A stretch of DNA of 64,000 bases from Nitrospirota bacterium (GTDB taxonomy: Bacteria; Nitrospirota; JACRHL01): contig JAOUMB010000010.1 of assembly GCA_029881725.1 (NCBI GenBank), positions 1,539 through 65,538 on the forward strand, written 5' to 3'. How positions within the stretch are numbered: the stretch's first letter is position 1; each line of letters starts with the position of its first letter. A model generated the notes under the pieces. The model worked only from the letters and a program-made list of their open reading frames with translations. It searched no databases and had not been told where the DNA came from. Position numbers and translations under genes: made by a program. This document shows positions 22,417 through 61,793 of the stretch, piece by piece.

Positions 22417-22524
22417 TGGCGGTCACCACCGGTCAATGGGTTTCCTGCTCGAGTTCAAGGCCTGTATCCCTATCACCTGTGCAACCCCGGCTTCCGCCCG
22501 CCGGGTCGCCACCCAATCACTCCC

Positions 22525-28410: not shown

Positions 28411-28531
28411 CGTTCCCTCTCCCAGGCAGGGGATAATCGAACCCCGGCGGGCCATCCATGGCCATGCCGGTCGGTCCACTGTTCCAGAAGATTTACATTT
28501 TGGCAACCCGGCGGGCGGGCGCAGAGGCTGT

Positions 28532-28843
28532 CTAAGCGGCGGAAAGATGGATGGAAGTGGCGGCGCAGTAGTCACATTGCATCACCAGATGCCGCTGGTG
28601 GGATTCCGTCTCGCAGTGCATGACGCCGCTCAACTGGCCACTGCCACACACCCGGCACGGTTGCTCCTGTCCGCTGTGGTCGTGGGCGCGGGAAACGGTC
28701 ACTTCCGCCTGACAGGCGGTACAGGCCGCCCGGTAGCTATCCCCCCCACTCATGCAGGTGGAATGCAGTTCCAACTCCCCGGCGCCGCAGCAGGGGCAAC
28801 TGGTGGCCGCCAGCATGATGCGGGCACTGGCCTGATGATTCAT
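28532..28843 (-). CDS. Small Cys-rich protein (putative zinc-ribbon).
   Basis: About 103 aa from ATG MNHQASARIML with a GGAGGA RBS. Cys pairs CPCCG...C..C, CRVCG, CDYC. Sits between the beta-barrel gene and the A2M gene. Confidence 0.45.
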   Translation of the reverse strand: MNHQASARIMLAATSCPCCGAGELELHSTCMSGGDSYRAACTACQAEVTVSRAHDHSGQEQPCRVCGSGQLSGVMHCETESHQRHLVMQCDYCAATSIHLSAA

Positions 28844-29035: not shown

Positions 29036-31849
29036 TCAGAAGTCGATGCGGTAGCCCAGGGCGATGAACCAGGTTTCGGTCTTTTCGGTGGCACCGGCGA
29101 TCTTGCGGGAACTCCACGCCTGTCCCCCTTCCAGTTCGAAGCGCATGTTGCGCCCCGCCCGCCAGTCCAGACGCAACTCCGGACGCCACACGGTCTCCTC
29201 GGCGTTGTTGCGCAGGTCGTCCCGCAGGTCCAGCCGCAGGCGCGGGTTGAAGCGCCAGTTGGGGCCCGCCTGAAAACGGCTGTTGGCGGTGAAGGTAAGG
29301 GTGCGGGTAAAGTCGGTATCCGCCAGGCGCGCCCCGAGGATGGTGATGTCACCCTCCTGAAGCAGGCCGCTGGTGATGAACTGAAGGTTGTAGAAATAAT
29401 CCGGGCCGCTCTCCGGCATGCCGGGAATATCCTTAATCGGCGCTCCGGGAAGGGTGGGGTCCCCGATGGTACCCGGCGTGGCGCTCAGCTTGGTGGCGGT
29501 GATGTCGGCACTGATCTGGGTTTTCTTGGACAACGGCTTGGTGCCCCCCAGGGTGAGGGAGCGGGACAGCGGAGTGTGGTCCAGGGCGGCCTGACGAACC
29601 TGATCCTCGGTCAGCAGGGTCAGCAGTTGCTCAATGGTCGTGATCGGCGTCAGGGTGGCGGTATCCACCATCCCCTGCAATGCATTGGTGGTGGTCAGCA
29701 CCGGGCTCTTGCGGTAATCCAGCACCAGGTTCAGGGTGGTCTCGCTCTTGAAGCGCCAGTTCCCCACGAACATGATGGTGTTGTATTCCTGATAGGAACG
29801 GTCGTAATCCACCAGCGTGAAGAACGACCGGCGCTCCGAGAAGAAGCGCAGTTCGCCACCCACCGCATCGCGGTCGGAGATACCGTCCACAGTCTGTTCG
29901 ATCTTGAACAAGTTCATGTCCAGGTGATTGAACAGGGTGCCGATGTCCACGCTGACGCCGTTGAATTCGCGGCGGCGGTTGATGGTGTTGCCGGTGGAAA
30001 TCTCCACCGGATAGCCCCGCACCAGGTTGACCTTCAACCGCCCGCCCAGGTTCTGGCGCAACAGGGTGCCGTCAAAGCGCCCCAGCACACCGGAGGTGCT
30101 CAGGGTCTGCCGCCCCACACGCAGGTTGGTGCGGGTGGGCTGGAACTGGGCATCCACATAGGCGGCGGTGAGGCGTCCCTCGCTGTTGGACTGGTTGGCA
30201 AAGTCGCGCCGGTAGCCGGTGGTGATCCGGGAACGGAAATCCAGCCGGTCGCTACGGCGCCGCCAGGTGAGATCCAGATCGGTATTGAGAAGCGAAAGGT
30301 CGGTACTCACCACGCCGGTGGGGTCCGTGGTCACATCACGCCGGTAATACTGGGACAGACCGCCGAAAAAGTCCTTGTGCACCTGCCCCTGGGCGCGCGT
30401 CACCTTGCGCAGTTCCTGGCGCTGCCCCGGCCCGGCGGCGGTAATGATGCCCGCCAGACGCTGGCGCACACGGGCCGCCGCGTCGCCGTCGGGATAGCGC
30501 TCCAGAAAATCGGTATAGATCTGCTTGGCGTGGGCGAACTGCCCCTTGCGCTCGCGGGCCAGCCCCAGATACTCCAGGGCATCCTGCTGATAGGGATGAT
30601 CCGCGAAACGCAGCACTTTGGTGTACAGGCGCACGGCGGTGTCGTAATCGGAGTCCACCATGGCCCGACGGGCGTCGTCCATCAGCTTCTTGAGCAGGGC
30701 TTCGTCCCCCTTGGGCGCATCGGCCACGGCCACCGGTGCCACGGTGCGCGGCGTGACCGCATGGGCCGAAGCAGCCACCCGCTCGGCCTCGGAAACCTCG
30801 GTCACCCAGGCGCCCGGGAAGGCCGTGGCCACCCGCTGCTGAATGCGCAGCGCATCCGGTTTTTCGGCAAAGAAACCGAGACGCAACTGGTAGCGGGTGC
30901 GGTTTCCGGACCGGGTTTTGTGCACATAGAGCAGATAGCGGGCGAACTCCGGCAGATCGGGCAGTCCCGCGGCGGTGATCGGCTTGCTGTCCTGCCGCAA
31001 CTGAATGGCGAAGTTGCCCTTCGGCAACGGCACCGACGGCGCCACATTGGCCGCCGGAGCCGGTTGCGGATCCGCGGCGGGAGCCGGTTTGGGCGTGGCA
31101 GTCGGAGCCGGTTTGGGGGTGGCGGCCCGGGCCACGGTGCGCGGCTCCGGCTTGACCACCGAGCGACGGGAGGAACGGCGCTCCTTTTTGGTCACTTCCG
31201 TCACCCAGGCACCGGGAAAATCCCGGGAAAGGGCGCGCTGAACCGGGGCAGCCTCCGCCGAACTGTCGAAAAATCCGACCCGCAACTGATAGTAGGTGGT
31301 GTCGCCCCGAACCTGCTCCTCCACATACAGCCGGTGCTGCTTGAACTCCAGCCGGTCGGGCAGGTGAGCCGGATCGGGCGCGCGGGTACCGCGCCACAAC
31401 TGCACCGCGAAAATGCCATCTCCCTTTGGCTCCGGCTTGGCGTCACGGGTCCGGGTCGCCCGTCCACGCGGCTCGATGGCGCCGGCGGCGGAGTCCTTGC
31501 GCTCCTGCATCCCCACCCGGGTGATCCACGCGTCCGCGTATTCCGACAGCAGCGTCCGGCGCACCTTTTCGGCGCTCTCCATATCCGGAAAAAACCCCAG
31601 CCGCAAGCGGTACCAGGTGGTGCCGCCCTTGGTGAAGGAGGTCTGATACAGGCGGTAGTCGCGAAATGCATCCAGAGCCGGCAACGCCTTCGGATCCACC
31701 GGTTTCTTCTCCAGGGAAATCTGGATCACGTAGCCGTTGTTCAGATTCACCTTGGGCGCGGCCTGCGCGTTCGCGGCAAAGGAAAACAGCGCCGCGCAGG
31801 CGCAGAGCAGCGTCAGCAGCAGGCGGTATGGAAATGAGGTGGCGGGCAT
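29036..31849 (-). CDS. Outer-membrane beta-barrel protein with three N-terminal SPOR-like repeats and a TPR-like segment.
   Basis: Signal peptide MPATSFPYRLLLTLLCACAALFSFAANAQA. Three repeats of roughly 75 aa ending ...YRLRLGFFPDMESAEKVRRTL..AWITRV / YQLRVGFFDSSAEAAPVQRAL..AWVTEV / YQLRLGFFAEKPDALRIQQRV..AWVTEV (SPOR-like). TPR-like segment YTKVLRFADHPYQQDALEYLGLARERKGQFAHAKQIYTDFLERYPDGD. The last roughly 480 aa alternate amphipathic strands and end ...IALGYRIDF (OMP C-terminal Phe). An alternative TTG start lies at 31873. Confidence 0.8.
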   Translation of the reverse strand: MPATSFPYRLLLTLLCACAALFSFAANAQAAPKVNLNNGYVIQISLEKKPVDPKALPALDAFRDYRLYQTSFTKGGTTWYRLRLGFFPDMESAEKVRRTLLSEYADAWITRVGMQERKDSAAGAIEPRGRATRTRDAKPEPKGDGIFAVQLWRGTRAPDPAHLPDRLEFKQHRLYVEEQVRGDTTYYQLRVGFFDSSAEAAPVQRALSRDFPGAWVTEVTKKERRSSRRSVVKPEPRTVARAATPKPAPTATPKPAPAADPQPAPAANVAPSVPLPKGNFAIQLRQDSKPITAAGLPDLPEFARYLLYVHKTRSGNRTRYQLRLGFFAEKPDALRIQQRVATAFPGAWVTEVSEAERVAASAHAVTPRTVAPVAVADAPKGDEALLKKLMDDARRAMVDSDYDTAVRLYTKVLRFADHPYQQDALEYLGLARERKGQFAHAKQIYTDFLERYPDGDAAARVRQRLAGIITAAGPGQRQELRKVTRAQGQVHKDFFGGLSQYYRRDVTTDPTGVVSTDLSLLNTDLDLTWRRRSDRLDFRSRITTGYRRDFANQSNSEGRLTAAYVDAQFQPTRTNLRVGRQTLSTSGVLGRFDGTLLRQNLGGRLKVNLVRGYPVEISTGNTINRRREFNGVSVDIGTLFNHLDMNLFKIEQTVDGISDRDAVGGELRFFSERRSFFTLVDYDRSYQEYNTIMFVGNWRFKSETTLNLVLDYRKSPVLTTTNALQGMVDTATLTPITTIEQLLTLLTEDQVRQAALDHTPLSRSLTLGGTKPLSKKTQISADITATKLSATPGTIGDPTLPGAPIKDIPGMPESGPDYFYNLQFITSGLLQEGDITILGARLADTDFTRTLTFTANSRFQAGPNWRFNPRLRLDLRDDLRNNAEETVWRPELRLDWRAGRNMRFELEGGQAWSSRKIAGATEKTETWFIALGYRIDF

Positions 31850-31899
31850 GATTCGGGTATATCTTTTGTTCAATAAAAAACGATTTAAATAACGTGCTG

Positions 31900-32550
31900 T
31901 TACAGAACGGTGGATGGATCCGGCGCCGGGTCCGGAGTTGGGTCCGGAAATTCGGGCAGTATCTCCCCGGGCGCTTCCCCGGGCGCTTCCCCGGGCGCTT
32001 CCCCGGGCGCTTCCCCGGGCGCTTCCCCGGGCGCTTCCTGGGGCGCGTTTTGGGGCACTTCCTGCGGCTCCGGCTGCGGTGCCGGGAGGACGATCTCGAT
32101 GCTGCGATAATCCTTGCCCTGGCGCACGTCGAACGGCACCGCCTGATCAAAGCGCAGAATCAGATACGGGATGCCGCGCTGCTGCCCGCTCGGCTCGTCC
32201 CCTTCGGGGCCCGCGTCCCCTTCATACAGGATGCTCAGGCGCGGCAGGCCGGGCCGTTCCGGAAGCACCGCCGCCTCGCGCCCGAACAGGATGTCGTCCT
32301 CTGGGAACTGTCCGTCCGGCAGGCGGCGCACCCGCACCACCACTTCCCTGGCCGGGTCATGGGGAAAGTGGTCCACGTACTGGGCGATAAAGCGGAACTC
32401 CACGCGCACCACCAGCCCTTCGGCGGTGGTATCGATGGACACGTCCTCCATCACCCCCTGACGCACCGGCTGTGCCGCCACCGGGGCCGCAAGGCCCAGG
32501 CAGATTCCCAGCACGGCCGCCGCCAGTACGGCACCCGCATGCAAACGCAT
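31900..32550 (-). CDS. Secreted hypothetical protein with a C-terminal (EAPG)n repeat.
   Basis: Signal peptide MRLHAGAVLAAAVLGICLGLAAPVAAQP. Strong RBS GGGGAGGGG. C-terminal PQEAPGEAPGEAPGEAPGEAPGEAPGEIL. Confidence 0.6.
   Translation of the reverse strand: MRLHAGAVLAAAVLGICLGLAAPVAAQPVRQGVMEDVSIDTTAEGLVVRVEFRFIAQYVDHFPHDPAREVVVRVRRLPDGQFPEDDILFGREAAVLPERPGLPRLSILYEGDAGPEGDEPSGQQRGIPYLILRFDQAVPFDVRQGKDYRSIEIVLPAPQPEPQEVPQNAPQEAPGEAPGEAPGEAPGEAPGEAPGEILPEFPDPTPDPAPDPSTVL
31965..32036. repeat. 12-bp tandem repeat (ccccgggcgctt)x6 encoding (EAPG)n.
   Basis: Perfect 12-nt periodicity: gggcgcttccccgggcgcttccccgggcgcttcccc.... Confidence 0.85.
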
Positions 32551-32572
32551 GATGTCTTCCCCTCCCCTGTGG

Positions 32573-34348
32573 TTAAAAGGCGCTGTCGGACACGCGGTGT
32601 TGGCGTGAACGGCTGTCCAGAATGGTGGTCATGCTCGAATTCGTATACACGTGGCACGACCCCGAGCAATCCCTCAACTCCGAAACGGTGTAGTTCACAC
32701 CGGGATACTTTTCATGCGGCCCGGAGCGGTAATTCCCGGAGTGGCACCCGGCGCAATCCGGCTGATAGGCCGGGGCCCGCCAGGTGACGGTTTCGCTGTT
32801 GGAACCGTGGCAGCGGGTGCAGGCCAGCGCCAACCGGTGGTCGCCCGGATAGTTCGGGGACTGGTGGCGGAAGGTGTCCGGAATCCAGGCGGTGGTGGTA
32901 TGGCAGTAGTCGCACGAGCGGCCGGTCTGGAAGTGGGTGCTGGTCTTGCCGGTGGCGTTGGTGCCGTTGTGGCAGGAGTTGCAGGTGCCGGGCGAAACGT
33001 TGGCGTGATCGAACCGGGCCGGCAGCCAGGCCACGGTGGAGTGGCAACTGTCACAACTGGCGGTGGTCTGCACGTGGGTAGCCGTCTTGCCGGTGGCGGT
33101 AATGCCGTTGTGGCAGGTGGAACACGTGCCGGGGGCCACCGCGCTGTGATCAAAAGAGGCCGGGATCCACGCGTTGGTGGTGTGGCAGTTGTCGCAGGTG
33201 TTGTCGCTGGCCACGTGGGTGGCATGTTTGCCGATGGCGGTGGTGCCGTTGTGGCAGTTGAAACAGGTGCCGATCACTTCCAGGTGGTCCACCCGCAGGG
33301 CCGGGATGAACGACACCGTGCTGTGGCAGGCTTCACACAGGCTGGATGTCTGGATGTGGGTGGCGTTCTTGCCGATGGCGGTGGTGCCATTGTGGCAGCT
33401 GAAACAGCCGCCGGTCACCTGGGCGTGGCTGAACACCGCGTTGGCCCAGGCGGCGGTGGTGTGGCAGTCGCCGCAGAGGTTGCTGCTCGGGATGTGGGTG
33501 GCACTCTTGCCGGTGGCAATGAGGCCGTTGTGGCAGGTGGAACATTCCCCGAGCACATCCGCGTGGTCCACGCGGGTAACGGTGGCAAAGCTGGTGGTGT
33601 TGTGGCAGCTTTCGCAGAAATTGGTGGTCAGCGGGTGCGCTGCGTGCTTGCCGGTGGCGGTGGTGCCGTTGTGGCAGGTGGAACAACTGCCGGTCACGCC
33701 GGTATGGTCGAAGCGCGCATTGAACCAGGTGGTCGGCGTATGGCAGTCCTCGCAGACGTTGCTGCTGGGAATGTGGGAAGCCGATTTACCGCTGGCGTCC
33801 ACGCCGTTGTGGCAGCGGAAGCAGTTGCCCACGATGCCGGTATGGTCGAAACGGATCATGCCCCAGGCGGTGGTGGTGTGGCAGTCGCTGCACGGGGCGC
33901 TGGTTTGCGGGTGGGTCGGGGTCTTGCCCGGGGCCACGGTGTTGTTGTGGCAACTGGCGCAACTGCCCAGCACGGAGGCGTGGTCCACCCGCGCCACCGG
34001 GTTCCAGCTGTTGGTGGTGTGGCAGTCGCCGCAAAAGTCGGTGCTCTGGATGTGGTTCTGCGGCTTGCGCGATCCGCTCACCCGCCCGGCGCGGGTGTGG
34101 CAGGCGGCGCACTGGGTGGGGGTGGTCTCGAAGATGCCGCGGATATGGCAGCTTTCACACTCCACCTGCTGGTGCGCGCCGGTCAGCGGAAAACCGCTCT
34201 TGAAGTGGTCGAACTGGGGGCGCCCGGACAGCTGGGCCGCGTCGGACATGGCCGGAATCAGCCAGGTGGCCAGCAGCGCTGCCGCCAGCAGGAGTACCCC
34301 CCACCAGCTCCCGAAGACCCCATCGGATGTGCTTTTATGATGCATCAT
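32573..34348 (-). CDS. Periplasmic multihaem c-type cytochrome with about 21 CXXCH plus 1 CXXXCH (paired/doubled CXXCH repeats).
   Basis: 591 aa with a signal peptide. Haem motifs counted: CESCH, CAACH, CGDCH, CASCH, CSDCH, CFRCH, CEDCH, CSTCH x3, CESCH, CGDCH, CFSCH, CEACH, CFNCH, CDNCH, CDSCH, CNSCH, CDYCH, CTRCH, CAGCH, CSGSCH. Repeating module C..CHT..W....FDH..V.G.C..CHNG.TA.GK..H. RBS GAGGT. Confidence 0.9.
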   Translation of the reverse strand: MMHHKSTSDGVFGSWWGVLLLAAALLATWLIPAMSDAAQLSGRPQFDHFKSGFPLTGAHQQVECESCHIRGIFETTPTQCAACHTRAGRVSGSRKPQNHIQSTDFCGDCHTTNSWNPVARVDHASVLGSCASCHNNTVAPGKTPTHPQTSAPCSDCHTTTAWGMIRFDHTGIVGNCFRCHNGVDASGKSASHIPSSNVCEDCHTPTTWFNARFDHTGVTGSCSTCHNGTTATGKHAAHPLTTNFCESCHNTTSFATVTRVDHADVLGECSTCHNGLIATGKSATHIPSSNLCGDCHTTAAWANAVFSHAQVTGGCFSCHNGTTAIGKNATHIQTSSLCEACHSTVSFIPALRVDHLEVIGTCFNCHNGTTAIGKHATHVASDNTCDNCHTTNAWIPASFDHSAVAPGTCSTCHNGITATGKTATHVQTTASCDSCHSTVAWLPARFDHANVSPGTCNSCHNGTNATGKTSTHFQTGRSCDYCHTTTAWIPDTFRHQSPNYPGDHRLALACTRCHGSNSETVTWRAPAYQPDCAGCHSGNYRSGPHEKYPGVNYTVSELRDCSGSCHVYTNSSMTTILDSRSRQHRVSDSAF

Positions 34349-34393
34349 CGGTTTACCTCAGTGCGCGCCCGCAACCGGCCAATAAAAATTCGA

Positions 34394-35983
34394 TCACCGT
34401 TCAATGGTGATATCGGAAAACGACTCGGTGGTGTGGCACCGGCCGCAGTCTCTTCCAAACTGTTCGCTGTGGACATCGTCCTGCAGGTGACAGGCACCGC
34501 AGGTGTTGGGCTGTTTGACACCCTTTTTTGAGGGCGTTTTGTGGCACGCGAGGCAGTCCAACCCCTCGTGCTTGCCGTCCAGCTTGAACTCGGTCTGCCG
34601 GTTGTGGTCAAAGGACCACAGGGGCCACCCGTTGGGGTTGTGGCAGGTGCCGCACAGGCTTCCCAGCCGCCGTTTGTGCTCGTCCTGCTTCTTGTGGCAG
34701 GCATAGCACTCCCCTTCGGTTTTCACGTAGCGCCGGTCCAGGTGGCACTCCTCGCACGGGGTGACCGCGTGCTGGCCGATGAGCGGAAACGGCGTCAGGT
34801 CGTGGTCAAAGCGCACCTGATCCCGCCATCCGGTTTCCCGGTGGCACTGGGCACAGTTTTCGCCCTGGCGCCCGTCGTGCACGTCGTCCCCCTTGTGGCA
34901 GGCATAGCAGTCGGTCTTGAGCTCCTCCTTGTACAGCACCCCCTTGTGACAGGACCGGCAACGGGCCTTTTCGTGGGCGCCCTTCAGGCGGAAATCGGTG
35001 TCCTTGTCGTGGTCGAAGATCACCCGGTCCCACGCCCTGGGCGTGTGGCAGGAGTCGCATTTCTCCCCGTAGCGCCCCTTGTGCTCGTCGTCGTTCTTGT
35101 GGCAACTGTGGCAATCGGTCTTGAGTTCGTCCTTGTACAGGTCGCCGGTATGGCACGCTTTGCAGGTGACCTCCTTGTGGCTGCCCTTCAAGGGAAAATC
35201 GGTGTCCTTGTCGTGGTCAAACCGCACCCGGTCCCACTTGTCCGGGGTGTGGCAATCCTCGCACTTGTCGCCGTTGGCGCCCCGATGCACGTCGTTGATC
35301 TTGTGGCAGGCGACGCAGGTGTCGGGCACCCCCTTGTACTTCTCTCCCGGGTGACACATGGCGCAGGCCACGTCCATATGGGAGTCCCTGAGGGGGAAGT
35401 CGGTCTTGTCGTGGTCGAAGGCGGTTTTCTTCCAGCCGGCGGTGGAGTGGCAGTCCTCGCACTTTTCCCCCAGCCGCCCGTCGTGGGCATCGTCTTCCTT
35501 GTGGCAGGCAAGACAGGTGGCGGGGGCATCGCGGAACTTCTTGTCCGGCTTGTGGCAGCCGTCACAACGCACGCGCTGATGGCGTCCCTTCAGGCGGTAA
35601 TCGGTCTGGTTGTGATCGAAGGTTTCGCGGTTCAGGCCCACGACATCGGCACTCCGGCCCACGTGATCGGTGTGGCAGACCTGACACTCCTGATTCGCCA
35701 CCTGGGGGGAACGGCCGTGAAACCCGCGTTTTTTACCCACGTCGGACGCCACATCCTTGTGGCAGTCCAGGCACAGGTTGTTCTGCACCCCCTTGCTGAA
35801 CCGTTTGTGGCAGTTGGTGCAGGTGTCCTCGTACTTGGCGTGCCCGGAAATCAACTCGCCGGGCATTACCAGCCGCTCAAGCGGACCGGCGAGGGCGCTA
35901 TGGGGAAACGTCAGCACAGCCATGATAAAAAGCGCCAGCGCCGCTACCAGGGCGCGCCGGACGAAAAAATGCCGGTGCGGCAT
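34394..35983 (-). CDS. Periplasmic multihaem c-type cytochrome with about 21 CXXCH (polymer of c7/c3-like trihaem units).
   Basis: Signal peptide MPHRHFFVRRALVAALALFIMAVLTFPHSALA. 21 CXXCH motifs, from CTNCH through CGRCH. Repeating module C..CH..D.H.G..G..C..CH......W....FDH..T.F.L.G.H....C..CH. Its ATG overlaps the stop of the upstream gene (TGATG). Confidence 0.9.
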   Translation of the reverse strand: MPHRHFFVRRALVAALALFIMAVLTFPHSALAGPLERLVMPGELISGHAKYEDTCTNCHKRFSKGVQNNLCLDCHKDVASDVGKKRGFHGRSPQVANQECQVCHTDHVGRSADVVGLNRETFDHNQTDYRLKGRHQRVRCDGCHKPDKKFRDAPATCLACHKEDDAHDGRLGEKCEDCHSTAGWKKTAFDHDKTDFPLRDSHMDVACAMCHPGEKYKGVPDTCVACHKINDVHRGANGDKCEDCHTPDKWDRVRFDHDKDTDFPLKGSHKEVTCKACHTGDLYKDELKTDCHSCHKNDDEHKGRYGEKCDSCHTPRAWDRVIFDHDKDTDFRLKGAHEKARCRSCHKGVLYKEELKTDCYACHKGDDVHDGRQGENCAQCHRETGWRDQVRFDHDLTPFPLIGQHAVTPCEECHLDRRYVKTEGECYACHKKQDEHKRRLGSLCGTCHNPNGWPLWSFDHNRQTEFKLDGKHEGLDCLACHKTPSKKGVKQPNTCGACHLQDDVHSEQFGRDCGRCHTTESFSDITIER

Positions 35984-38145
35984 CAGTACATGTGTACCGC
36001 GAGCACGTGGATCAGCGCCGTAAACACCATCATCAGGAACAGGGGAAAGTGCAACAGGTGCCACAGGCCAAAAATCCGTTCGTAAAAGCCGAACTCCGCC
36101 ACCGAATGCACGGAGCGGTAGTATTCCTTAAAATGCTTGCGCAACGCCTTGCGATGGCGCGACAACGTCTTGCGGTCCCACCCGTCCTGCTCGGCGCGCT
36201 GCTTCAGGGCCACCCGCGCCACGCGCCGGATGCGCAGCCGGGTCCAGATGGTCCGAGGGCGCACGGTGAGCAGCCGCCAGGTGCGGCCAATCACCCCGGT
36301 GGGGGCGTTCAGCCACTTTTCCAGCCGCAGCAACCGCTCATTCATCTCTTCGGGAAATTCGATGTCCCCCTCCAGTGTACCGTGCGCGGATTTCAAACCC
36401 ATGCGCATTTCGGCGGCGGTGGCGCGGCGCCCATACAGGCCGTGATGGATCTTGGTGTACATGAATCGCCCGAACAGGCCGCTGAAGGCCACCACCAGCA
36501 TGGTGAACAGGGCGATCTGGCTGTTCAGGGAACCCAGGGCGAAATTGGAATGGAATACCACCAGCAGCGGCCCCACCACCCCCATGATCATGTGGGTCTG
36601 GAACCAGTACTTGACCGGTCCCATGCGGCGCATGAAATTCATTTTCTTGCGCATGGGGTAGAGCAGCAACAAGGCCATCATCACCGCCCCGGCAATGCCC
36701 AGGTAGTAACCGGTACCGGTTTCGGCGGACAGGTAGCCGGTCTCGCGCTGGGTCCATCCATACAGGGTGGCGCCGAACACGGCAAACATGAACAGCCCCC
36801 ACCCCAGACCGGAGGAAGCATCCGGAACGGCGGGGTCGTTGGCCGGGCGCGGTTCGGGAACCGGAATCGGACTGGCCTTGGCGGCCGGAACCGCAGCGGC
36901 CTTCTTGGCCTTCGGCGCACCATCCTGGCCACCCCCACCGGAACGGCCGGACGGCACGTGCGGGCGGCCGGGGCCACCGGACTTGCGCGCCGGGGTCGAG
37001 GCACATTGCTGGACCTGCGGGGCCGGGTCCGCCGCCGGAGCCGACACGGGCACCACCTGGCTGGCGGCTTCCTTGGAACGCACTGCGGACACCGTCGCGG
37101 CCACCTGAGCGGCCAGGGAGTCCTGGGGTGCAACCTGAGGCACGGCAGCGGGTGTCACCTGCGGCGCGGGCGTGGAAATTTTGGGAATGGCCACCCTGGG
37201 AGTGGCCTGGGGCGCCGGGGCGGGCACGGTCTGGGCGGCGGGCTTCACCGTCACCACCGCAGCCGCACGGGCAGCGGGAAGTTCACCCGGATTGCGGGCC
37301 GCATCGATAATCGCCTTTAACGCAGCCGCGTTGCGGTCCGGCGCCTCCGCCGGGGTACGGGCAGCCGCCACCAGTTTACGGACTGCGGCTTCACGCCCGG
37401 CCTCCTGAGTGGACTGGGGGGTGGCCGCCTTCGAGATCGCGGCGGTCGATGTCGGTTTCGGAACGGCCATCTTGGGGGCAGCGGCCTGCGGGGCAGCCAT
37501 CTTGGGGGCAGCCGCCTGCGGAGCAGCCATCTTGGGGGCAGCGGCCTGCGGAGCAGTCATCTTGGGGGCAGCCACATTATCGCCCAGCGTCATTGCCACC
37601 AGGCGGGCCATTGCCTCGCGCCGGATCGCCTGACGCGCGGCGGTTGATTGGGTATCTTCTATGGCGGTATCCGCCGGGGCCTGGGCAGCGGTTTGTGCCT
37701 GCACCGCGTCCATGATGCGTTCGGCTTCATCTCCAAACGCCACCGACAGCAGCATGGCCAGTTGCTCGCGGGTGGAGCGGGAACGTTGCGGCAACGGAGG
37801 CGCCGGCTGAGGCGCGGCGCCGGAACCAATCGGACCCTGAATGTGGCCGCCAGGCGGCGGCCCGATCAAGCCCGACGGGGTTCCCGAACCGCTCCCAACC
37901 CGACGCGCGATTTCCGAAGCGTGCTCGCCAAAGGCCAGTGACAGAAGGGATTCCAGCTCCGCACCGGATACCGGCTCCCCTTTCAACGGACGCGATTCCA
38001 CATCCAGACCAAAGAAATCGCCCTTCATCGGACCGGCATCGTCCAGGCTGCCCCAGCCTCCCGGGTGAACCCGGGAACCGGTGCGGTCAGACGACGGATC
38101 AAAGGATTCCAGTGCGTCCATATCCATGCCGGAAAAATCTTCCAT
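35983..38145 (-). CDS. Membrane protein with a roughly 440-aa Ala/Pro-rich low-complexity N-terminal region and a C-terminal 5-TM domain carrying two bis-His helices (ferric-reductase/cytochrome-b-like).
   Basis: 720 aa. Strong RBS GGGAGGTG plus ATG MEDFSGMDMDAL. In-frame (KMAAPQAAAP)n repeat. TM helices: GWGLFMFAVFGATLYGW; YYLGIAGAVMMALLLLYP; YWFQTHMIMGVVGPLLVVFHSNF (two His 14 residues apart); IALFTMLVVAFSGLFGRFMY; WHLLHFPLFLMMVFTALIHVLAVHMY (two His 14 residues apart). Confidence 0.65.
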   Translation of the reverse strand: MEDFSGMDMDALESFDPSSDRTGSRVHPGGWGSLDDAGPMKGDFFGLDVESRPLKGEPVSGAELESLLSLAFGEHASEIARRVGSGSGTPSGLIGPPPGGHIQGPIGSGAAPQPAPPLPQRSRSTREQLAMLLSVAFGDEAERIMDAVQAQTAAQAPADTAIEDTQSTAARQAIRREAMARLVAMTLGDNVAAPKMTAPQAAAPKMAAPQAAAPKMAAPQAAAPKMAVPKPTSTAAISKAATPQSTQEAGREAAVRKLVAAARTPAEAPDRNAAALKAIIDAARNPGELPAARAAAVVTVKPAAQTVPAPAPQATPRVAIPKISTPAPQVTPAAVPQVAPQDSLAAQVAATVSAVRSKEAASQVVPVSAPAADPAPQVQQCASTPARKSGGPGRPHVPSGRSGGGGQDGAPKAKKAAAVPAAKASPIPVPEPRPANDPAVPDASSGLGWGLFMFAVFGATLYGWTQRETGYLSAETGTGYYLGIAGAVMMALLLLYPMRKKMNFMRRMGPVKYWFQTHMIMGVVGPLLVVFHSNFALGSLNSQIALFTMLVVAFSGLFGRFMYTKIHHGLYGRRATAAEMRMGLKSAHGTLEGDIEFPEEMNERLLRLEKWLNAPTGVIGRTWRLLTVRPRTIWTRLRIRRVARVALKQRAEQDGWDRKTLSRHRKALRKHFKEYYRSVHSVAEFGFYERIFGLWHLLHFPLFLMMVFTALIHVLAVHMY
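37440..37575. repeat. 30-bp tandem repeat, about 3.5 copies, inside the membrane-protein gene.
   Basis: Unit catcttgggggcagc(g/c)gcctgcgg(g/a)gcag(c/t). Copies start near 37468, 37498, 37528 and 37558. Encodes KMAAPQAAAP repeats on the minus strand. Confidence 0.75.
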
Positions 38146-38571: not shown

Positions 38572-39921
38572 TTGGAAAAACTGCCGATTGGTCCGGAAAT
38601 TCTGGGCAAGCTGCCCTTCGACCCGGAATTGCTGATCTATATCGTCCCGCTGGTGGTGATCTTTCTTTTTTATGCAGGTCGCCGCTCCAGCGCCCACAAA
38701 AAAAGCAGCCGGGTCCTGCGCGAAAACCTGGAGGCGGGCCTCACCGAACCCGCATCGTTGCATCCGCTCATCGACGAGTCTCGTTGCATCGGTTGCGCCT
38801 CATGCGTCACCGCCTGCCCGGAGAGCAAATACGAGGTGCTGGGCATCGTGCACGGCAAGGCGGAACTGATCAACCCCACCGCCTGCATCGGCCACGGCGC
38901 CTGCAAGACCGCCTGCCCGGTGGATGCCATCACCCTGGTGTTCGGTACTGAAAAACGCGGGCTGGACATCCCCAACGTCAAACCCAACTTCGAAACCAAC
39001 ATCCCCGGACTGTTCATTGCGGGGGAACTGGGTGGCATGGGCCTCATCGGCAATGCCGTGGAGCAGGGCCGCCAGGCCATGGACAACATTGCCAAACTGT
39101 CCGGCATGGGCAAGGGCGACGGGTACGACGTGGTGATCGTGGGGGCCGGACCATCGGGCTTTTCCGCCACCCTGGGCGCCATGGAAAAGAAGCTGCGCTA
39201 CCTGACCGTGGAGCAGGATTCCCTGGGCGGCACCGTATACAACTTTCCACGCGGCAAACTGGTCATGACCCGGCCGGTGGACCTGCCCATCGTGGGCAAG
39301 GTCAGGTTCACGGAAACCACCAAGGAAAAATTGCTCGAGTTCTGGACCGACGTGGAAAAAAAGACGGGGGTCAAAATCAGTTACAAGGAACGGGTGGACG
39401 ACATCACCCCCTCCGGCAAGGGGTTCGTGGTCAAAACCAGCAAGGGCACGTACAAGACCCGTGCGGTGCTGCTGGCCATTGGCCGCCGGGGCACCCCGCG
39501 CAAGCTTGATGTGCCGGGCGAGGAAACTCCCAAGGTCACCTACCGGCTGATCGACCCGGAGCAGTACACGGGCCAGCATGTGCTGGTGGTGGGCGGCGGC
39601 GACAGTGCCCTGGAGGCCGCCACCAGCATCGCCGATCAGGCCGGTACCACGGTAACCCTGTCCTATCGCAGCGACGCCTTCGGGCGCGCCAAGGGCAAGA
39701 ACCGGGAGCGGGTGGACGCCGCCGTGGCAGCCGGGCGCCTGAATGTGATGCTCAAAAGCACGGTCAAGGAAATCACCCCGGACAAGGTGGTGATCGACCA
39801 CGACGGCACCCTGCACACGCTCAGCAACGACGCCATCATCGTGTGCGCCGGCGGCATCCTGCCCACCGGATTCCTGAAACAGATCGGCATTCAGGTGGAC
39901 ACCAAATATGGCACCGCCTGA
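38572..39921 (+). CDS. Membrane-anchored 2x[4Fe-4S] ferredoxin-domain FAD/NAD(P)-binding oxidoreductase (thioredoxin-reductase-like fold).
   Basis: TTG start preceded by GAGGAG. N-terminal TM helix LLIYIVPLVVIFLFYAG. CIGCASCVTACP and CIGHGACKTACP (two CxxCxxCxxxCP clusters). Dinucleotide motifs DVVIVGAGPSGFSA and HVLVVGGGDSALEAA. Confidence 0.8.
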   Translation: MEKLPIGPEILGKLPFDPELLIYIVPLVVIFLFYAGRRSSAHKKSSRVLRENLEAGLTEPASLHPLIDESRCIGCASCVTACPESKYEVLGIVHGKAELINPTACIGHGACKTACPVDAITLVFGTEKRGLDIPNVKPNFETNIPGLFIAGELGGMGLIGNAVEQGRQAMDNIAKLSGMGKGDGYDVVIVGAGPSGFSATLGAMEKKLRYLTVEQDSLGGTVYNFPRGKLVMTRPVDLPIVGKVRFTETTKEKLLEFWTDVEKKTGVKISYKERVDDITPSGKGFVVKTSKGTYKTRAVLLAIGRRGTPRKLDVPGEETPKVTYRLIDPEQYTGQHVLVVGGGDSALEAATSIADQAGTTVTLSYRSDAFGRAKGKNRERVDAAVAAGRLNVMLKSTVKEITPDKVVIDHDGTLHTLSNDAIIVCAGGILPTGFLKQIGIQVDTKYGTA

Positions 39922-41944
39922 CGCCGCACCCCCTTCCCGGCGCTGGTGGCCCGTCGCCGTCCTTTTGCTGCTGATGCTGCCCCTGTCCCTGCCCGCCCCG
40001 GCGCTGGCGGACCCCATGGATGACGTGAAGGCCGCCGTGCGCCTGCGCGACTATCCACGTGCCATCCGGCTGCTGACCCCCATTGCGGAAAAGGGCGATG
40101 CCGAGGCCCAGTACCAGCTCGGCTCCCTGTACCGCTCCGGACGCGCCGGGGACAATCCGAAGGCCGCGTTCCGCTGGCTGCTGGCCGCCGCCCAGCAGGG
40201 GCACGCCAAGGCGCAGTATTCGGTCGGCACCCTCTATGAAACGGGCACGGGGGTGGAGCAGAGCGCCGACCGTGCCCTGGTGTGGTATCAGAAGGCTTCC
40301 GCCCAGGGACACGACGGGGCCCAGACCCGCGCCGAAGCCCTCCAGGGTACCCTCGGAAGTAAAAAGGACCGTCCCAGCCGTCAGGAATTGACCGCGGCCC
40401 TTCTGGCCGCCGCCGAGAGCGGGGATGACCGCGAAGTGCGCAGGCTCCTGAAACAGGGGGGCGACGCCAACGCCACCGACGCCGCCGGGCACTCCGCGCT
40501 GATGAACGCCGCCGCCCAGGGGCATCTCAAGGTGGTGCGGATTCTGCTCAAGGCGGGCGCCAAGCCCAACCTGGCGGACAAATACGGGGATACCGCCGTC
40601 ACCCTGGCCGCCCGCCACGGGCGTCCGCGCACCCTGGTCGCCCTGCTGGACGCCGGGGGCGATGTCAACGCCACCGACGGCAACGGCAACACCCCCCTGA
40701 TCCTGGCGGCGCTGCACGATCACGCCAAGACCACCGAGTTGCTGATCAAGGCCCGCGCCCGGCTCAATACCCGGAACAAGAACGGAGAAACCGCCCTCGA
40801 CGTGGCCGTGCGCAAGGAGCACCGCAAGCTGGTCGCCCAGTTGGAAGCGGCGGGTGCCACCCGCACCGCACAGGCGGCGGAACCCGCCATACCTCAGTCC
40901 GTGGAGGCGCTGGAGGCGTTGCAGGCCGGCGGCGACGACGCCCTTTACGCGGGGTGGTCCACCCTGGCGGTGGCCGCCTGGCGTGGTCAGGCGGAGGCCA
41001 TGAAAAAGCTGCTGGCCCAGGGCGCCAGGGTGGACGCCCGCGACCCGGAGGGGCACACCCCTCTGAGCCGCGCCGCGTGGCAGGGCCACCTGGAAGCGGT
41101 CAACCTGTTGCTGGCCCGCAAGGCCAACCCCAATGCCTACCAGAAAGACGGCCGGAGCCCCATCCTGTGGGCAGCGGAAAACGGTCACACCGAGGTGGTG
41201 ACCGCCCTGCTCAAGGCCGGTGCCCGCGCTGGAGAGCGGCAGGGCAAGGATGGCGACAGCGCCTTGATGCTGGCGGTGCAGAAGGGCAGCGCCGAAACCG
41301 TGGAGGTGCTGCTGAAGGCCGGAGCCGATCCCAACATGGCCCTGCCCGACGGCGAAACCGCGCTGCTGCGCGCCGCCGCCCGCGGCAGCCTGGGAATCGT
41401 CCGCCAATTGCTGGCTGCGGGGGCCCAGGTGAATCATCGGGACCAGGATGGCCGTACCGCCCTCTGGTTCGCCGCCAATGCCGGCGCGGTCAAGACCTGC
41501 GGCGTGCTGCTGGGCGCCAGGGCCAATGTGGCCTACGTGGATGCCTCCGGTCACACGGCCCTGTCGCGGGCCGCCCTCGGTGGACACTCCGGGGTAATCG
41601 CCGCGCTGCTGAAACAGGGAGCCCAGCCCGACACACGCACCCGGGAGGGAAACACACCCCTGTTGCTGGCCGCCTCCGAAGGGCACCTGGAGACGATCCA
41701 GCGCCTGCTGGAAGCAGGCGCCAAGGTGAACACCCAGAACGAGGCCGGAGACACCGCCCTGATCCGCGCCGTCATCGGTCGCCATCCGCGCGTGGTAGGC
41801 TTGTTGCTCAATCAGGGGGCCGATCCGAAGATTCGCAACAAGAAGCGGCAAACCGCCCGCTCGCTGGCAGAGGAATCCGGGGACGAAAACCTGATCCGCG
41901 TGTTCGAAAAGCCGGAAGGCAAAAACCTGCTCGACCTGTTTTGA
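39908..41944 (+). CDS. Secreted protein with N-terminal Sel1-like repeats and about 14 ankyrin repeats.
   Basis: Signal peptide MAPPDAAPPSRRWWPVAVLLLLMLPLSLPAPALA. Sel1 units AQYQLGSLYRSGRAGDNPKAAFRWLLAAAQQGHAKAQYSVGTLYETGTG.... ANK consensus repeated, for example DAAGHSALMNAAAQGHLKVVRILLKAGAKPN, DGNGNTPLILAALHDHAKTTELLIKARARLN. The ATG overlaps the upstream stop by 14 bp. Confidence 0.85.
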   Translation: MAPPDAAPPSRRWWPVAVLLLLMLPLSLPAPALADPMDDVKAAVRLRDYPRAIRLLTPIAEKGDAEAQYQLGSLYRSGRAGDNPKAAFRWLLAAAQQGHAKAQYSVGTLYETGTGVEQSADRALVWYQKASAQGHDGAQTRAEALQGTLGSKKDRPSRQELTAALLAAAESGDDREVRRLLKQGGDANATDAAGHSALMNAAAQGHLKVVRILLKAGAKPNLADKYGDTAVTLAARHGRPRTLVALLDAGGDVNATDGNGNTPLILAALHDHAKTTELLIKARARLNTRNKNGETALDVAVRKEHRKLVAQLEAAGATRTAQAAEPAIPQSVEALEALQAGGDDALYAGWSTLAVAAWRGQAEAMKKLLAQGARVDARDPEGHTPLSRAAWQGHLEAVNLLLARKANPNAYQKDGRSPILWAAENGHTEVVTALLKAGARAGERQGKDGDSALMLAVQKGSAETVEVLLKAGADPNMALPDGETALLRAAARGSLGIVRQLLAAGAQVNHRDQDGRTALWFAANAGAVKTCGVLLGARANVAYVDASGHTALSRAALGGHSGVIAALLKQGAQPDTRTREGNTPLLLAASEGHLETIQRLLEAGAKVNTQNEAGDTALIRAVIGRHPRVVGLLLNQGADPKIRNKKRQTARSLAEESGDENLIRVFEKPEGKNLLDLF

Positions 41945-47498: not shown

Positions 47499-47659
47499 CT
47501 CAAATTCTCCCCGCATCAGGTCGATCTTGCGGGTGGCCGGGCACAGGTTCAGATTCCCGGTGTTCTCTGCTTTTGAATCTTGTTTCATACTCAGTCCAAC
47601 CCTTGGTCACACAAAAAAGAGGGGGTGGGGGTGGCCGAAGCCACCCCCACCCGTTGGGG

Positions 47660-50266: not shown

Positions 50267-50317
50267 CTTAATACTCCCACTGTTCACAGAACGACACATC
50301 CTTGTTGTTCATTTAAA

Positions 50318-61680: not shown

Positions 61681-61793
61681 GTTCACCACCTCGTTCCTCA
61701 CCGGAGTCATATTCATATTCCTTGCCCCCGAAATCCTCTGGGTACGGCTTTGCAGCCCGTCACGCCGGTCACACATACCATTCCGATCCATGA

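What the first reader, a model, noticed from the sequence alone, without database searches (positions are those of the whole stretch)
32573..34348. About 22-haem cytochrome with doubled-CXXCH architecture and one CXXXCH site
Ten near-regular repeats of about 50 aa, each with two CXXCH, plus terminal extras. The last site is CSGSCH, a rarer CX3CH haem attachment. With its neighbour this operon encodes more than 40 c-haems in two polypeptides.
Basis: seen in the sequence. Interest (0 to 1): 0.6.

Follow-up and report, generated by a model that had tools for sequence, protein, structure and literature searches.

The report
22-haem outer cytochrome of PCC3 conduit
This gene encodes a 22-haem "molecular wire" protein that belongs to a known but untested set of genes (PCC3) thought to carry electrons across the bacterial cell envelope, so it is a real but fairly ordinary member of a recognised family.

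Summary
ORF 32573..34348 (minus strand, 591 aa) carries 21 CXXCH and one CSGSCH. All 44 cysteines lie in these motifs, and shuffled sequences give 0.3 CXXCH on average. Haems 3-18 sit in eight regular two-haem units of 46-47 aa. Doubled-CXXCH models match above their curated cut-offs. A C-x3-CH sits at this position in all 80 related loci examined.

It is the outer multihaem cytochrome of a PCC3-type porin-cytochrome cluster (He et al. 2017), here in an uncultured Nitrospirota genome. The gene order is:
- an inner-membrane protein with two WX3HX13H motifs and SGXXG;
- a 21-haem periplasmic cytochrome;
- this 22-haem cytochrome;
- a small secreted protein;
- an outer-membrane protein with SPOR domains, TPR helices and a predicted 22-strand barrel.

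Across relatives the periplasmic partner is almost always 21 haems, while this protein ranges from 9 to 63 haem motifs in those loci and up to 133 elsewhere. That fits an outward-projecting wire of adjustable length.

PCC3 function remains unverified and no related structure is solved. The verdict is a new member of a known kind, of moderate interest. New side observations are the invariant C-terminal cap and a tightly linked membrane-anchored Fe-S flavoprotein.

The parts
32573..34348 (-). Gene for the 591-aa, 22-haem-motif cytochrome c (protein A), the outer or 'extracellular' multihaem cytochrome of a PCC3-type cluster
   Evidence: ORF and translation. GC3 0.86. Motif count. Pfam and NCBIfam matches. 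Conserved gene order in related loci.
34238..34348 (-). Sec-type signal peptide, about aa 1-37 (hydrophobic core WWGVLLLAAALLATWLIPA, then SDA|AQ). There is no lipobox cysteine.
   Evidence: Read directly from the translation. All Cys lie in haem motifs. The cleavage site is inferred.
34034..34237 (-). Conserved N-terminal module with haems 1-2 (FDHFKSGFPLTGAH..VECESCH ... CAACH)
   Evidence: Invariant columns in alignment A2. The same module follows the SPOR domains in fusion proteins P0045 and P0062.
32915..34033 (-). Eight tandem two-haem units of 46-47 aa (haems 3-18). Consensus: CxDCHTTxAWxPARFDHAxVxGxCxxCHNGTTATGKxATHxQTSNx.
   Evidence: DNA-level 141-bp repeat at 32924..33272. Each unit has two invariant non-motif His.
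32576..32914 (-). Conserved C-terminal cap (aa 479-591) with haems 19-21 (CXXCH) and haem 22 (CSGSCH). Invariant His at 472, 495, 504, 545 and 584. An aromatic residue lies at or near the C-terminus.
   Evidence: Alignment A1 of 22 sequences. Cap present in 80 of 80 loci.
32651..32668 (-). CSGSCH, the single C-x3-CH haem-attachment motif (aa 561-566)
   Evidence: Conservation shown.
34394..35983 (-). Upstream partner (protein B): a 529-aa periplasmic cytochrome with 21 CXXCH in seven c7-like trihaem units of about 67 aa. Rich in charged residues (D, K, R, E). Its start overlaps the stop of the inner-membrane gene by 1 nt.
   Evidence: Its orthologue has 21 haems in 51 of 59 loci. NCBI names the protein 'cytochrome C [Nitrospirota bacterium]', MDH5526508.1.
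35983..38145 (-). 720-aa inner-membrane protein. It has a Pro/Ala-rich N-terminal extension of about 440 aa, inferred to be cytoplasmic. The C-terminal domain has about five TM helices with WFQTH-x13-H (TM3), SGLFG (TM4) and WHLLH-x13-H (TM5). It is a putative dihaem-b transmembrane electron carrier.
   Evidence: Motifs read. They match the PCC3/PCC4 inner-membrane protein signature described in PMC5566968. No Pfam or NCBIfam hit. Found in 60 of 80 loci.
31900..32550 (-). Small secreted protein (216 aa, or 204 aa in a public gene call) with a Pro-rich tail and an (APGE)n repeat. Function unknown.
   Evidence: Detectable in only 18 of 80 loci. 12-bp tandem repeat at 31964..32046.
29036..31849 (-). 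937-aa outer-membrane protein: signal peptide, three SPOR domains, TPR helices, and a C-terminal predicted 22-strand beta-barrel ending GYRIDF. This is the 'porin' of the cluster.
   Evidence: AF2 model with pLDDT 90.4 and 22 strands. Only generic outer-membrane barrel matches in PDB, TM about 0.38. Barrel found in 73 of 80 loci and TPR in 72 of 80.
38572..39921 (+). Divergently transcribed 449-aa protein: an N-terminal TM anchor, two [4Fe-4S] motifs, and an FAD/NAD(P)-binding (thioredoxin-reductase-like) domain. It is conserved next to the cluster.
   Evidence: Linked in 57 of 80 loci, which is nearly all loci whose upstream flank is present.
39908..41944 (+). 678-aa protein with a signal peptide, Sel1 repeats and ankyrin repeats. 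It is frequently linked to the cluster.
   Evidence: Linked in 41 of 80 loci.

Best explanation
Protein A is the outer multihaem cytochrome of a PCC3-type trans-envelope electron conduit in an uncultured Nitrospirota bacterium.

Shown by the sequence:
- A Sec signal peptide.
- 22 c-haem attachment motifs at about 25 residues per haem.
- Enough conserved non-motif His (about 23) for every haem to be bis-His ligated.
- A modular build: a conserved N-terminal two-haem module, eight tandem two-haem units, and a conserved four-haem C-terminal cap whose last haem uses C-x3-CH.

Inferred:
- After Sec export and haem attachment by the general maturation system, the haems form one continuous chain roughly 15-20 nm long.
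- The N-terminal end sits in the periplasm near the peptidoglycan and outer membrane. There it exchanges electrons with the 21-haem periplasmic cytochrome B, which bridges to the dihaem-b inner-membrane protein.
- The rest of A passes through or docks on the 22-strand barrel of the SPOR-TPR outer-membrane protein. It projects outward by a length set by the number of repeats.
- Electrons can then move between the cell and insoluble or extracellular donors or acceptors such as Fe or Mn minerals.
- The direction of flow is not determined.
For: Motifs, repeats and composition:
- T 13%, S 10%, A 9.6%, G 7.8%, and 26.9 aa per haem. This matches the PCC3 'extracellular MHC' description: T/S/A/G-rich, with 22-39 aa per haem (PMC5566968).
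- The L. cholodnii PCC3 extracellular cytochrome has 22 haem motifs and ten repeats on a 47-residue diagonal. Its porin has 22 predicted transmembrane regions. The window protein has a 46-47-aa period, and its barrel is modelled with 22 strands.

Gene order:
- The order inner-membrane protein, periplasmic cytochrome, outer cytochrome, porin equals Slit_1446-1449 of S. lithotrophicus ES-1.
- The inner-membrane protein carries the two WX3HX13H motifs and the SGXXG motif.
- B has seven repeats of about 67 aa and 21 haems, like the Riftia-endosymbiont PCC3 periplasmic cytochrome.
- In 80 loci from Gamma- and Alphaproteobacteria, Nitrospirota and others, B was found in 74, the barrel in 73 and the inner-membrane protein in 60.

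Length and placement:
- B is fixed at 21 haems in 51 of 59 loci. A varies from 9 to 63 motifs in those loci, and up to 133 in a 3592-aa relative. This fits a fixed periplasmic span plus a free outward extension.
- In P0045 and P0062, SPOR (peptidoglycan-binding) domains are fused to the N-terminus of A-type cytochromes. This places that end in the periplasm.

Haem site:
- The cap and the C-x3-CH are invariant, and so is the candidate distal His584.
- A CXXXCH motif has been shown to bind haem c in MmcA.
Against: - No PCC3 component has been tested experimentally. Recent papers still call it 'functionally unverified'. The outer cytochrome Slit_1448 was not detected in ES-1 proteomes.
- Extracellular localisation rests on predictors and on composition.
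- A has no lipobox, and no secretion system is encoded nearby.
- The AF2 model of A is unusable (pLDDT 56), so the linear haem chain and its length are not shown.
- A 22-strand barrel is smaller than the 26-strand MtrB. Whether a cytochrome fits inside was not tested.
- I could not align A directly to a named PCC3 reference sequence.
- The window genome is Nitrospirota, a phylum not mentioned in the passages I read from the original PCC3 survey. The assignment comes from a metagenome bin.
Confidence: 0.65

Rival explanations
1. A is an MtrA-like barrel-inserted cytochrome that is otherwise periplasmic. Together with B it acts mainly as a periplasmic electron store (capacitor) or relay and does not project from the cell. 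The barrel only exposes its last haem at the surface.
For: The best solved-structure and NCBIfam matches, though weak, are to MtrA/DmsE-type decahaem proteins: 6r2q_A at E 3e-4, and TIGR03508 at 95.5 bits. A has a plain Sec signal peptide and no lipobox. N-terminal SPOR fusions place at least part of A-type proteins in the periplasm. Hoover et al. raise a capacitor role.
Against: A varies from 9 to 133 haems while B is fixed at 21. A purely periplasmic rod of 40-130 haems added to a 21-haem B would far exceed the envelope width. The TIGR03508 score is far below its cut-off of 192.2. The low-charge, T/S/N-rich composition differs from the highly charged periplasmic B.
Confidence: 0.2
2. A is a subunit of an extracellular polymeric cytochrome filament of the OmcS/OmcE/OmcZ type. 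The conserved N- and C-terminal modules would mediate head-to-tail stacking.
For: Both termini are conserved while the middle varies. About one more conserved His is present than the 22 needed for distal ligation. A conserved aromatic residue lies at or near the C-terminus.
Against: There is no sequence or fold match to any filament cytochrome in PDB. There is enough His for fully intramolecular bis-His ligation. The tight linkage to a barrel protein, a periplasmic cytochrome and an inner-membrane protein is the porin-cytochrome pattern. No filament-assembly genes are nearby.
Confidence: 0.07
3. A is a catalytic multihaem enzyme. The unusual C-x3-CH haem would be a substrate-binding active site, for example a reductase or oxidase for a soluble N, S or metal species.
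For: Non-canonical motifs often mark special haems, for example CXXCK in NrfA and CX15CH in MccA (PMC3601427). The site is invariant and lies in a distinct non-repeat domain.
Against: An invariant His (H584) is available as the sixth ligand for this haem. The spacing changes to C-x4-CH, or longer, at the same position in a sister group. That suggests a tolerant structural loop rather than a tuned active site. There is no match to any catalytic multihaem family. The protein is about 90% repeats at about 25 aa per haem, which leaves no room for a substrate pocket.
Confidence: 0.05

Closest known systems
PCC3 porin-cytochrome c cluster, 'extracellular MHC' component (He et al. 2017, PMC5566968), e.g. 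S. lithotrophicus ES-1 Slit_1446-1449 and L. cholodnii SP-6
   Same: The four-gene core and its order are the same: inner-membrane protein with 2x WX3HX13H and SGXXG, a periplasmic cytochrome of about 21 haems built from units of about 66 aa, an outer cytochrome built from two-haem units of about 47 aa, and an outer-membrane barrel. The L. cholodnii outer cytochrome also has 22 motifs, and its porin has 22 predicted strands.
   Different: - The host is a Nitrospirota metagenome-assembled genome.
- The barrel protein carries three SPOR domains and a TPR module.
- The inner-membrane protein has a 440-aa Pro/Ala-rich N-terminal extension.
- A small extra gene lies between the cytochrome and the barrel gene.
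- The invariant C-x3-CH cap is not described in the passages I read from the PCC3 papers. Searches of He et al. 2017 for 'ankyrin' and 'pyridine nucleotide' found nothing, so the linked Fe-S flavoprotein and ankyrin genes appear not to be mentioned there.
MtrCAB / MtoAB porin-cytochrome complexes (MtrA/DmsE decahaem family, TIGR03508; PDB 6R2Q)
   Same: Both show the same logic: a haem wire associated with an outer-membrane barrel links periplasm and exterior. Both have a low residue-to-haem ratio. There is weak sequence similarity over doubled-CXXCH stretches.
   Different: - A has 22 haems rather than 10.
- The score is 95.5 bits against a cut-off of 192.2, so A is not a family member.
- The barrel is predicted with 22 strands. 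MtrB has 26 strands (from my own knowledge).
- The periplasmic gap is bridged by a single 21-haem protein rather than by small shuttles.
- The inner-membrane partner is a putative dihaem-b protein, not CymA.
Geobacter multidomain c7-type cytochromes (GSU1996 / TIGR04257 'nanowire_3heme')
   Same: These are repeat-built linear multihaem proteins with presumably bis-His low-potential haems. The neighbour B has the same trihaem periodicity. A gives Pfam Cytochrome_C7 hits at 3e-28.
   Different: A's unit holds two haems in 46-47 aa, not three in about 70 aa. Its TIGR04257 score of 35.3 is below the cut-off of 40. A profile of A's unit finds nothing significant in PDB; the best hit is E 0.036.
Methanosarcina acetivorans MmcA (heptahaem with one CXXXCH and one CXXXXCH motif)
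   Same: It contains a C-x3-CH motif within a multihaem electron conduit. Haem c on that peptide was shown by mass spectrometry (PMC10153276).
   Different: It is an unrelated protein from an archaeon, associated with Rnf. The motif is not in a C-terminal cap.

Membership tests
PCC3 porin-cytochrome cluster (He et al. 2017) | Cluster encodes an inner-membrane protein, a periplasmic multihaem cytochrome, a second ('extracellular') multihaem cytochrome and an outer-membrane beta-barrel, adjacent and co-oriented | tested here: met
   All lie on the minus strand at 29036..38145 in that order. The order equals Slit_1446-1449. The arrangement is conserved in most of 80 loci.
PCC3 porin-cytochrome cluster (He et al. 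2017) | Inner-membrane protein with about five TM helices, SGXXG on TM4 and WX3HX13H on TM3 and TM5 | tested here: met
   WFQTH-x13-H, SGLFG and WHLLH-x13-H were read. The hydropathy segments are consistent. The signature is described.
PCC3 porin-cytochrome cluster (He et al. 2017) | Periplasmic cytochrome with about 21 (21-27) haems in repeats of about 66 aa | tested here: met
   B has 21 CXXCH in seven units of about 67 aa. The Riftia-endosymbiont reference has seven repeats of 66 aa and 21 haems.
PCC3 porin-cytochrome cluster (He et al. 2017) | Outer cytochrome is repeat-built, T/S/A/G-rich, with 22-39 aa per haem | tested here: met
   26.9 aa per haem, T+S+A+G = 40.6%, and a 46-47-aa period. 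The L. cholodnii reference has 22 motifs and a 47-residue repeat diagonal.
PCC3 porin-cytochrome cluster (He et al. 2017) | Outer-membrane beta-barrel ('porin') | tested here: met
   AF2 model with pLDDT 90.4 and 22 strands. It matches only outer-membrane barrels in PDB. The protein ends in F.
PCC3 porin-cytochrome cluster (He et al. 2017) | Direct sequence homology to a named reference PCC3 outer cytochrome (e.g. Slit_1448, Lcho) | not tested
The link is indirect, through shared architecture and through homologous clusters in Lamellibrachia tubeworm endosymbionts (L014, L018, L034). He et al. list PCC3 in other tubeworm endosymbionts.
PCC3 porin-cytochrome cluster (He et al. 2017) | Surface or extracellular location and a role in extracellular electron transfer | not testable with these tools
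   This is only predicted in the literature and is still 'functionally unverified'.
Doubled CXXCH domain (Pfam PF09699 Paired_CXXCH_1; TIGR01905) | Score above the curated gathering cut-off | tested here: met
   PF09699: 62.5 bits against 20.6, three stretches. TIGR01905: 48.5 bits against 25.2.
DmsE/MtrA decahaem family (TIGR03508) | Score above cut-off, and ten haems | tested here: not met
   95.5 bits against a cut-off of 192.2, and 22 motifs.
c7-type trihaem 'nanowire' domain (TIGR04257) | Score above cut-off, and a trihaem unit | tested here: not met
   35.3 bits against a cut-off of 40. A's unit has two haems.
c-type haem attachment at C-x3-CH | Covalent haem on the CSGSCH peptide | not testable with these tools
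   Supported only by conservation: 80 of 80 loci, the following His, and an invariant candidate distal His. There is also the MmcA precedent.
Filament-forming cytochromes (OmcS/OmcE/OmcZ) | Sequence or fold similarity to solved filament subunits | tested here: not met
   No such hits appear in the PDB sequence searches. Foldseek gave zero hits, but the model was of low confidence.

The most novel reading that the evidence does not exclude
PCC3 may not be a quinone-linked iron oxidase. It may instead be a split, NOX/FRE-like conduit fed from the cytoplasm.

In this reading, the conserved membrane-anchored 2x[4Fe-4S] FAD/NAD(P) flavoprotein (38572..39921) hands electrons to the dihaem-b inner-membrane protein. 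They pass to the fixed 21-haem periplasmic ruler, and then to an outer wire whose length evolves by 47-aa duplications (9-133 haems). The invariant C-x3-CH (or C-x4-CH) cap haem would be the specialised distal contact or docking site. SPOR and TPR modules would pin the whole machine to peptidoglycan.
Probability: 0.2. Interest if true: 0.7.

Novelty: new member of a known kind. Interest (0 to 1): 0.38.

Why it matters
PCC3 clusters are widespread. The cap profile matched 1068 protein clusters at E<=1e-10, although that count is inflated because the profile's first third also matches the repeat unit. These clusters are proposed to mediate mineral-microbe electron exchange, yet none has a tested function or a solved structure.

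This window adds a Nitrospirota example. It also yields concrete handles for experiments: a fixed 21-haem periplasmic partner against a length-variable outer wire, an invariant C-terminal cap with a non-canonical haem site, a predicted 22-strand barrel with peptidoglycan-binding modules, and a tightly linked cytoplasmic-side Fe-S flavoprotein. Each of these can be tested by mutagenesis or cryo-EM.

For the finding as stated, a 22-haem doubled-CXXCH cytochrome with one CX3CH site, the result is confirmation and correct filing rather than a discovery.

Tried and rejected
- AF2 of protein A with a 38-sequence alignment gave pLDDT 56 and pTM 0.29. Foldseek against PDB gave no hit. Nothing structural is claimed for A.
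- A PDB sequence search with the whole protein gave only weak hits, to 9eov_A and to MtrA (6r2q_A). A profile of the 47-aa unit gave nothing significant, with a best E of 0.036.
- MtrA/DmsE, GSU2203, HmcA, NrfH and c7 'nanowire' memberships were considered. All score below their NCBIfam cut-offs.
- I looked for a dedicated haem lyase (WWD motif) and for other cytochrome genes in all six frames of the window. None was found. The cluster of CXXCH-like strings near 48 kb is an off-frame artefact of a collagen-repeat gene.
- The promoter and terminator scan of 28.4-38.7 kb was uninformative: one promoter-like site against 1.5 expected, and only weak terminator-like sites.
- An exact-sequence look-up of the 590-aa form of A failed; it is not in the collection. 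The organism was therefore identified through its neighbours.
- The genome scan found no identical locus.
- The Foldseek search with the barrel model returned only generic outer-membrane barrels with TM about 0.38. No specific relative such as MtrB or a usher can be claimed.
Full report

ORF 32573..34348 on the minus strand encodes 591 aa. Its third-position GC is 0.86, against 0.51 for the overlapping plus-strand ORF. In this 65% GC window that marks the minus strand as coding. A GAGG lies 7 nt upstream of the first ATG. A public gene call starts one codon later, giving 590 aa.

The protein has 21 CXXCH and one CSGSCH at aa 561-566, window 32651..32668. All 44 Cys belong to these motifs, and there are 49 His. 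Shuffling the protein 2000 times gives a mean of 0.29 CXXCH and a maximum of 3, so chance is excluded.

Motif spacing is 23-24 aa from haem 3 to haem 19. Cut at every second motif, haems 3-18 form eight units of 46-47 aa with mean pairwise identity 51%. The consensus is CxDCHTTxAWxPARFDHAxVxGxCxxCHNGTTATGKxATHxQTSNx, and each unit has two invariant non-motif His. A ninth unit is degenerate. A 141-bp repeat is still detectable in the DNA at 32924..33272, so the array grew by tandem duplication.

The upstream gene (34394..35983, 529 aa) has 21 CXXCH, giving 43 motifs in the two proteins.

**2.

Pfam Paired_CXXCH_1 scores 62.5 bits against a cut-off of 20.6. TIGR01905 scores 48.5 bits against 25.2. 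Both pass.

The C-terminal 126 residues form a conserved cap (alignment A1). Invariant features are three CXXCH, the C-x3-CH, and His at positions 472, 495, 504, 545 and 584. That is enough for bis-His ligation of the last four haems.

In the 80 best loci, every orthologue has exactly one C-x3-CH at this place. Among the 120 best protein hits, 69 have C-x3-CH, 27 have C-x4-CH at the equivalent position, and 2 have a longer spacer.

The site is therefore conserved, and its loop length is tolerant. A CXXXCH peptide of Methanosarcina MmcA carries haem c by mass spectrometry (PMC10153276). The known dedicated lyases serve CXXCK and CX15CH (PMC3601427). A special lyase is thus possible but not implied, and none is encoded in the window.

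**3. What it is**

The surrounding minus-strand genes, in order of transcription, are:
- **Inner-membrane protein**, 720 aa (35983..38145). It has no Pfam or NCBIfam match. Its C-terminal domain contains WFQTH-x13-H, SGLFG and WHLLH-x13-H in hydrophobic segments.
- **Cytochrome B**, with 21 haems in seven c7-like units of about 67 aa. It is rich in charged residues (D, K, R, E). Its start overlaps the stop of the preceding gene by one base.
- **Cytochrome A**, the finding.
- **A small secreted protein** of 216 aa.
- **An outer-membrane protein** of 937 aa. It has a signal peptide, three SPOR domains, TPR helices, and a C-terminal region ending GYRIDF.

An AF2 model of the last 550 residues of the outer-membrane protein is confident (pLDDT 90.4). 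It shows TPR helices followed by 22 beta-strands with a helical insert. PDB matches are generic outer-membrane barrels only.

This is the PCC3 cluster described by He et al. 2017 (PMC5566968). PCC3 comprises a porin, an 'extracellular' multihaem cytochrome, a periplasmic multihaem cytochrome, and an inner-membrane protein. The extracellular cytochrome is T/S/A/G-rich, repeat-built and has 22-39 aa per haem. The periplasmic cytochrome has a median of 21 haems. The inner-membrane protein has five TM helices, SGXXG on TM4, and WX3HX13H on TM3 and TM5.

Their supplement gives closely matching numbers:
- L. cholodnii has a porin with 22 transmembrane regions.
- Its extracellular cytochrome has 22 haem motifs and ten repeats on a 47-residue diagonal.
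- The Riftia endosymbiont's periplasmic cytochrome has seven 66-aa repeats and 21 haems.

The ES-1 gene order Slit_1446 (inner-membrane protein), 1447 (periplasmic cytochrome), 1448 (extracellular cytochrome), 1449 (porin) is the same as here.

**4. Organism**

The outer-membrane protein is 100% identical to an NCBI protein from a 'Nitrospirota bacterium' MAG, on a 76,419-bp contig. B, the inner-membrane protein and the flavoprotein are MDH5526508-10 of the same contig.

**5. Comparative evidence**

tblastn of the window's proteins against the 80 loci found:

| Protein or domain | Loci with a match (of 80) |
|---|---|
| B | 74 |
| Barrel | 73 |
| TPR | 72 |
| Inner-membrane domain | 60 |
| Fe-S flavoprotein | 57 |
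| Sel1/ankyrin protein | 41 |
| SPOR | 30 |
| Small protein | 18 |

Most absences occur where a contig ends.

The hosts are Gammaproteobacteria, Alphaproteobacteria, Nitrospirota and deltaproteobacterial MAGs. The Gammaproteobacteria include Steroidobacteraceae, Sedimenticolaceae, Lamellibrachia endosymbionts, Halieaceae, Woeseiaceae and Thiohalobacter. The Alphaproteobacteria include Caulobacteraceae, Hyphococcus and Sphingomonadaceae.

B-orthologues have 21 haems in 51 of 59 complete ORFs; the others have 18, 20, 22 or 24. A-orthologues range from 9 to 63 motifs, mostly in even totals with a mode of 20. A profile search of 1.84 billion representatives found capped relatives up to 3592 aa with 133 motifs. 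Its hit counts are inflated, because the first third of the cap profile also matches the repeat unit.

**6. Mechanism**

Shown:
- A has a Sec signal peptide.
- A has 22 attachment motifs.
- Conserved His are sufficient for all-bis-His ligation.
- A has very few Met.
- A has a three-part modular architecture.
- A is tightly linked to B, the barrel and the inner-membrane protein.

Inferred:
- A forms a continuous haem chain. At the roughly 8-10 Å per haem seen in MtrA and GSU1996 (my own knowledge, not tested here) it would be 15-20 nm long.
- The constant length of B fits a ruler spanning a fixed periplasm.
- The free variation of A fits an element not confined between the membranes, that is, one projecting outward through or from the barrel.
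- In two lineages, SPOR domains are fused to the N-terminus of A-type cytochromes (P0045, P0062). The N-terminal module is therefore at the periplasmic, peptidoglycan side, and the cap is the distal end or the barrel-docking end.
- The direction of electron flow is unknown.

Rivals are a mostly periplasmic, MtrA-like relay or capacitor; a polymerising filament subunit; and a catalytic enzyme with the C-x3-CH haem as active site. I weigh these in the rival section. None is favoured.

**7. What is known and what is new**

PCC3 has been known bioinformatically since 2017. AF2 models of it were described as 'long and mostly linear' (PMC10734462). It remained 'functionally unverified' in 2025. The outer cytochrome was undetected in ES-1 proteomes. 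No relative has a solved structure. The finding is therefore a new member of a known kind.

I did not find the following points in the passages I read from those papers:
- the invariant C-terminal cap with C-x3-CH or C-x4-CH;
- the SPOR and TPR modules on the barrel protein;
- the near-obligate linkage to a membrane-anchored 2x[4Fe-4S] FAD/NAD(P) oxidoreductase and a secreted Sel1/ankyrin protein. Searches of He et al. for 'ankyrin' and 'pyridine nucleotide' returned nothing.

The flavoprotein has an N-terminal TM helix followed by a basic stretch, so its redox domains should face the cytoplasm. This raises the possibility that the dihaem-b protein is fed from NAD(P)H, as in NOX/FRE-type systems, rather than from quinol. 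This is speculative.

**8. Verdict**

The protein is filed as the outer cytochrome of a PCC3-type conduit. Interest is moderate.

Noticed in passing
window 38572-39921 (+) and 39908-41944 (+): A membrane-anchored 2x[4Fe-4S] + FAD/NAD(P) oxidoreductase and a signal-peptide Sel1/ankyrin-repeat protein are transcribed divergently from the cluster. They are linked to it in 57 and 41 of 80 related loci, in three different arrangements. Searches of He et al. 2017 for 'ankyrin' and 'pyridine nucleotide' found nothing. This suggests a cytoplasmic electron input or output for the dihaem-b membrane protein.
   Followed up: partly
window 29036-31849 (-): The cluster's outer-membrane protein combines three SPOR (peptidoglycan-binding) domains, TPR helices and a confidently predicted 22-strand barrel with a helical insert. 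In other lineages (P0045, P0062) the SPOR domains are fused to the N-terminus of the A-type cytochrome instead.
   Followed up: partly
proteins P0254, P0250, P0264: Relatives of this cytochrome reach 3592 aa with 133 haem-attachment motifs and still carry the same C-x3-CH cap. Haem number in the family spans 9-133.
   Followed up: partly
window 35983-38145 (-), N-terminal about 440 aa; tandem repeat 37459-37572: The inner-membrane protein has a long Pro/Ala-rich, low-complexity N-terminal extension, predicted cytoplasmic, with a 30-bp tandem repeat (AAPKMAAPQA-like). It is shared only with the closest Nitrospirota relative (L001). Other clusters have an inner-membrane protein of about 300 aa.
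   Followed up: no
window 31900-32550 (-); tandem repeat 31964-32046: A small secreted protein lies between the cytochrome and the barrel gene. It has 6.9 copies of a 12-bp repeat encoding (APGE)n and a Pro-rich tail. It has no family match and is detectable in only 18 of 80 loci.
   Followed up: no
window 44724-46028 (-), 46110-47588 (-), 54412-61791 (-): Two ORFs have multicopper-oxidase domains. A 2459-aa PKD/SdrD-type surface protein has an N-terminal Cu-oxidase_3 domain. This is a possible metal-oxidation context near the cytochrome cluster.
   Followed up: no
window 47660-50299 (-): An 879-aa ORF is made of collagen triple-helix repeats (Pfam E 1e-96). Another reading frame of the same strand produces a run of spurious CXXCH-like strings near 48 kb.
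   Followed up: partly
window 20065-28575 (-): A bacterial alpha-2-macroglobulin (about 1960-2016 aa) and a PBP1C-type penicillin-binding protein lie immediately downstream of the cluster, followed by a Peptidase_M15_4 gene. This is the usual A2M-PbpC pair and is probably unrelated to the cytochromes.
   Followed up: no
C-terminus of protein A (window 32576-32590) and its orthologues: The last one to three residues almost always include F or W (...SAF, ...GGF, ...GFD, ...DWD). The role of this conserved terminal aromatic is unknown. It could be a docking or sorting signal.
   Followed up: no
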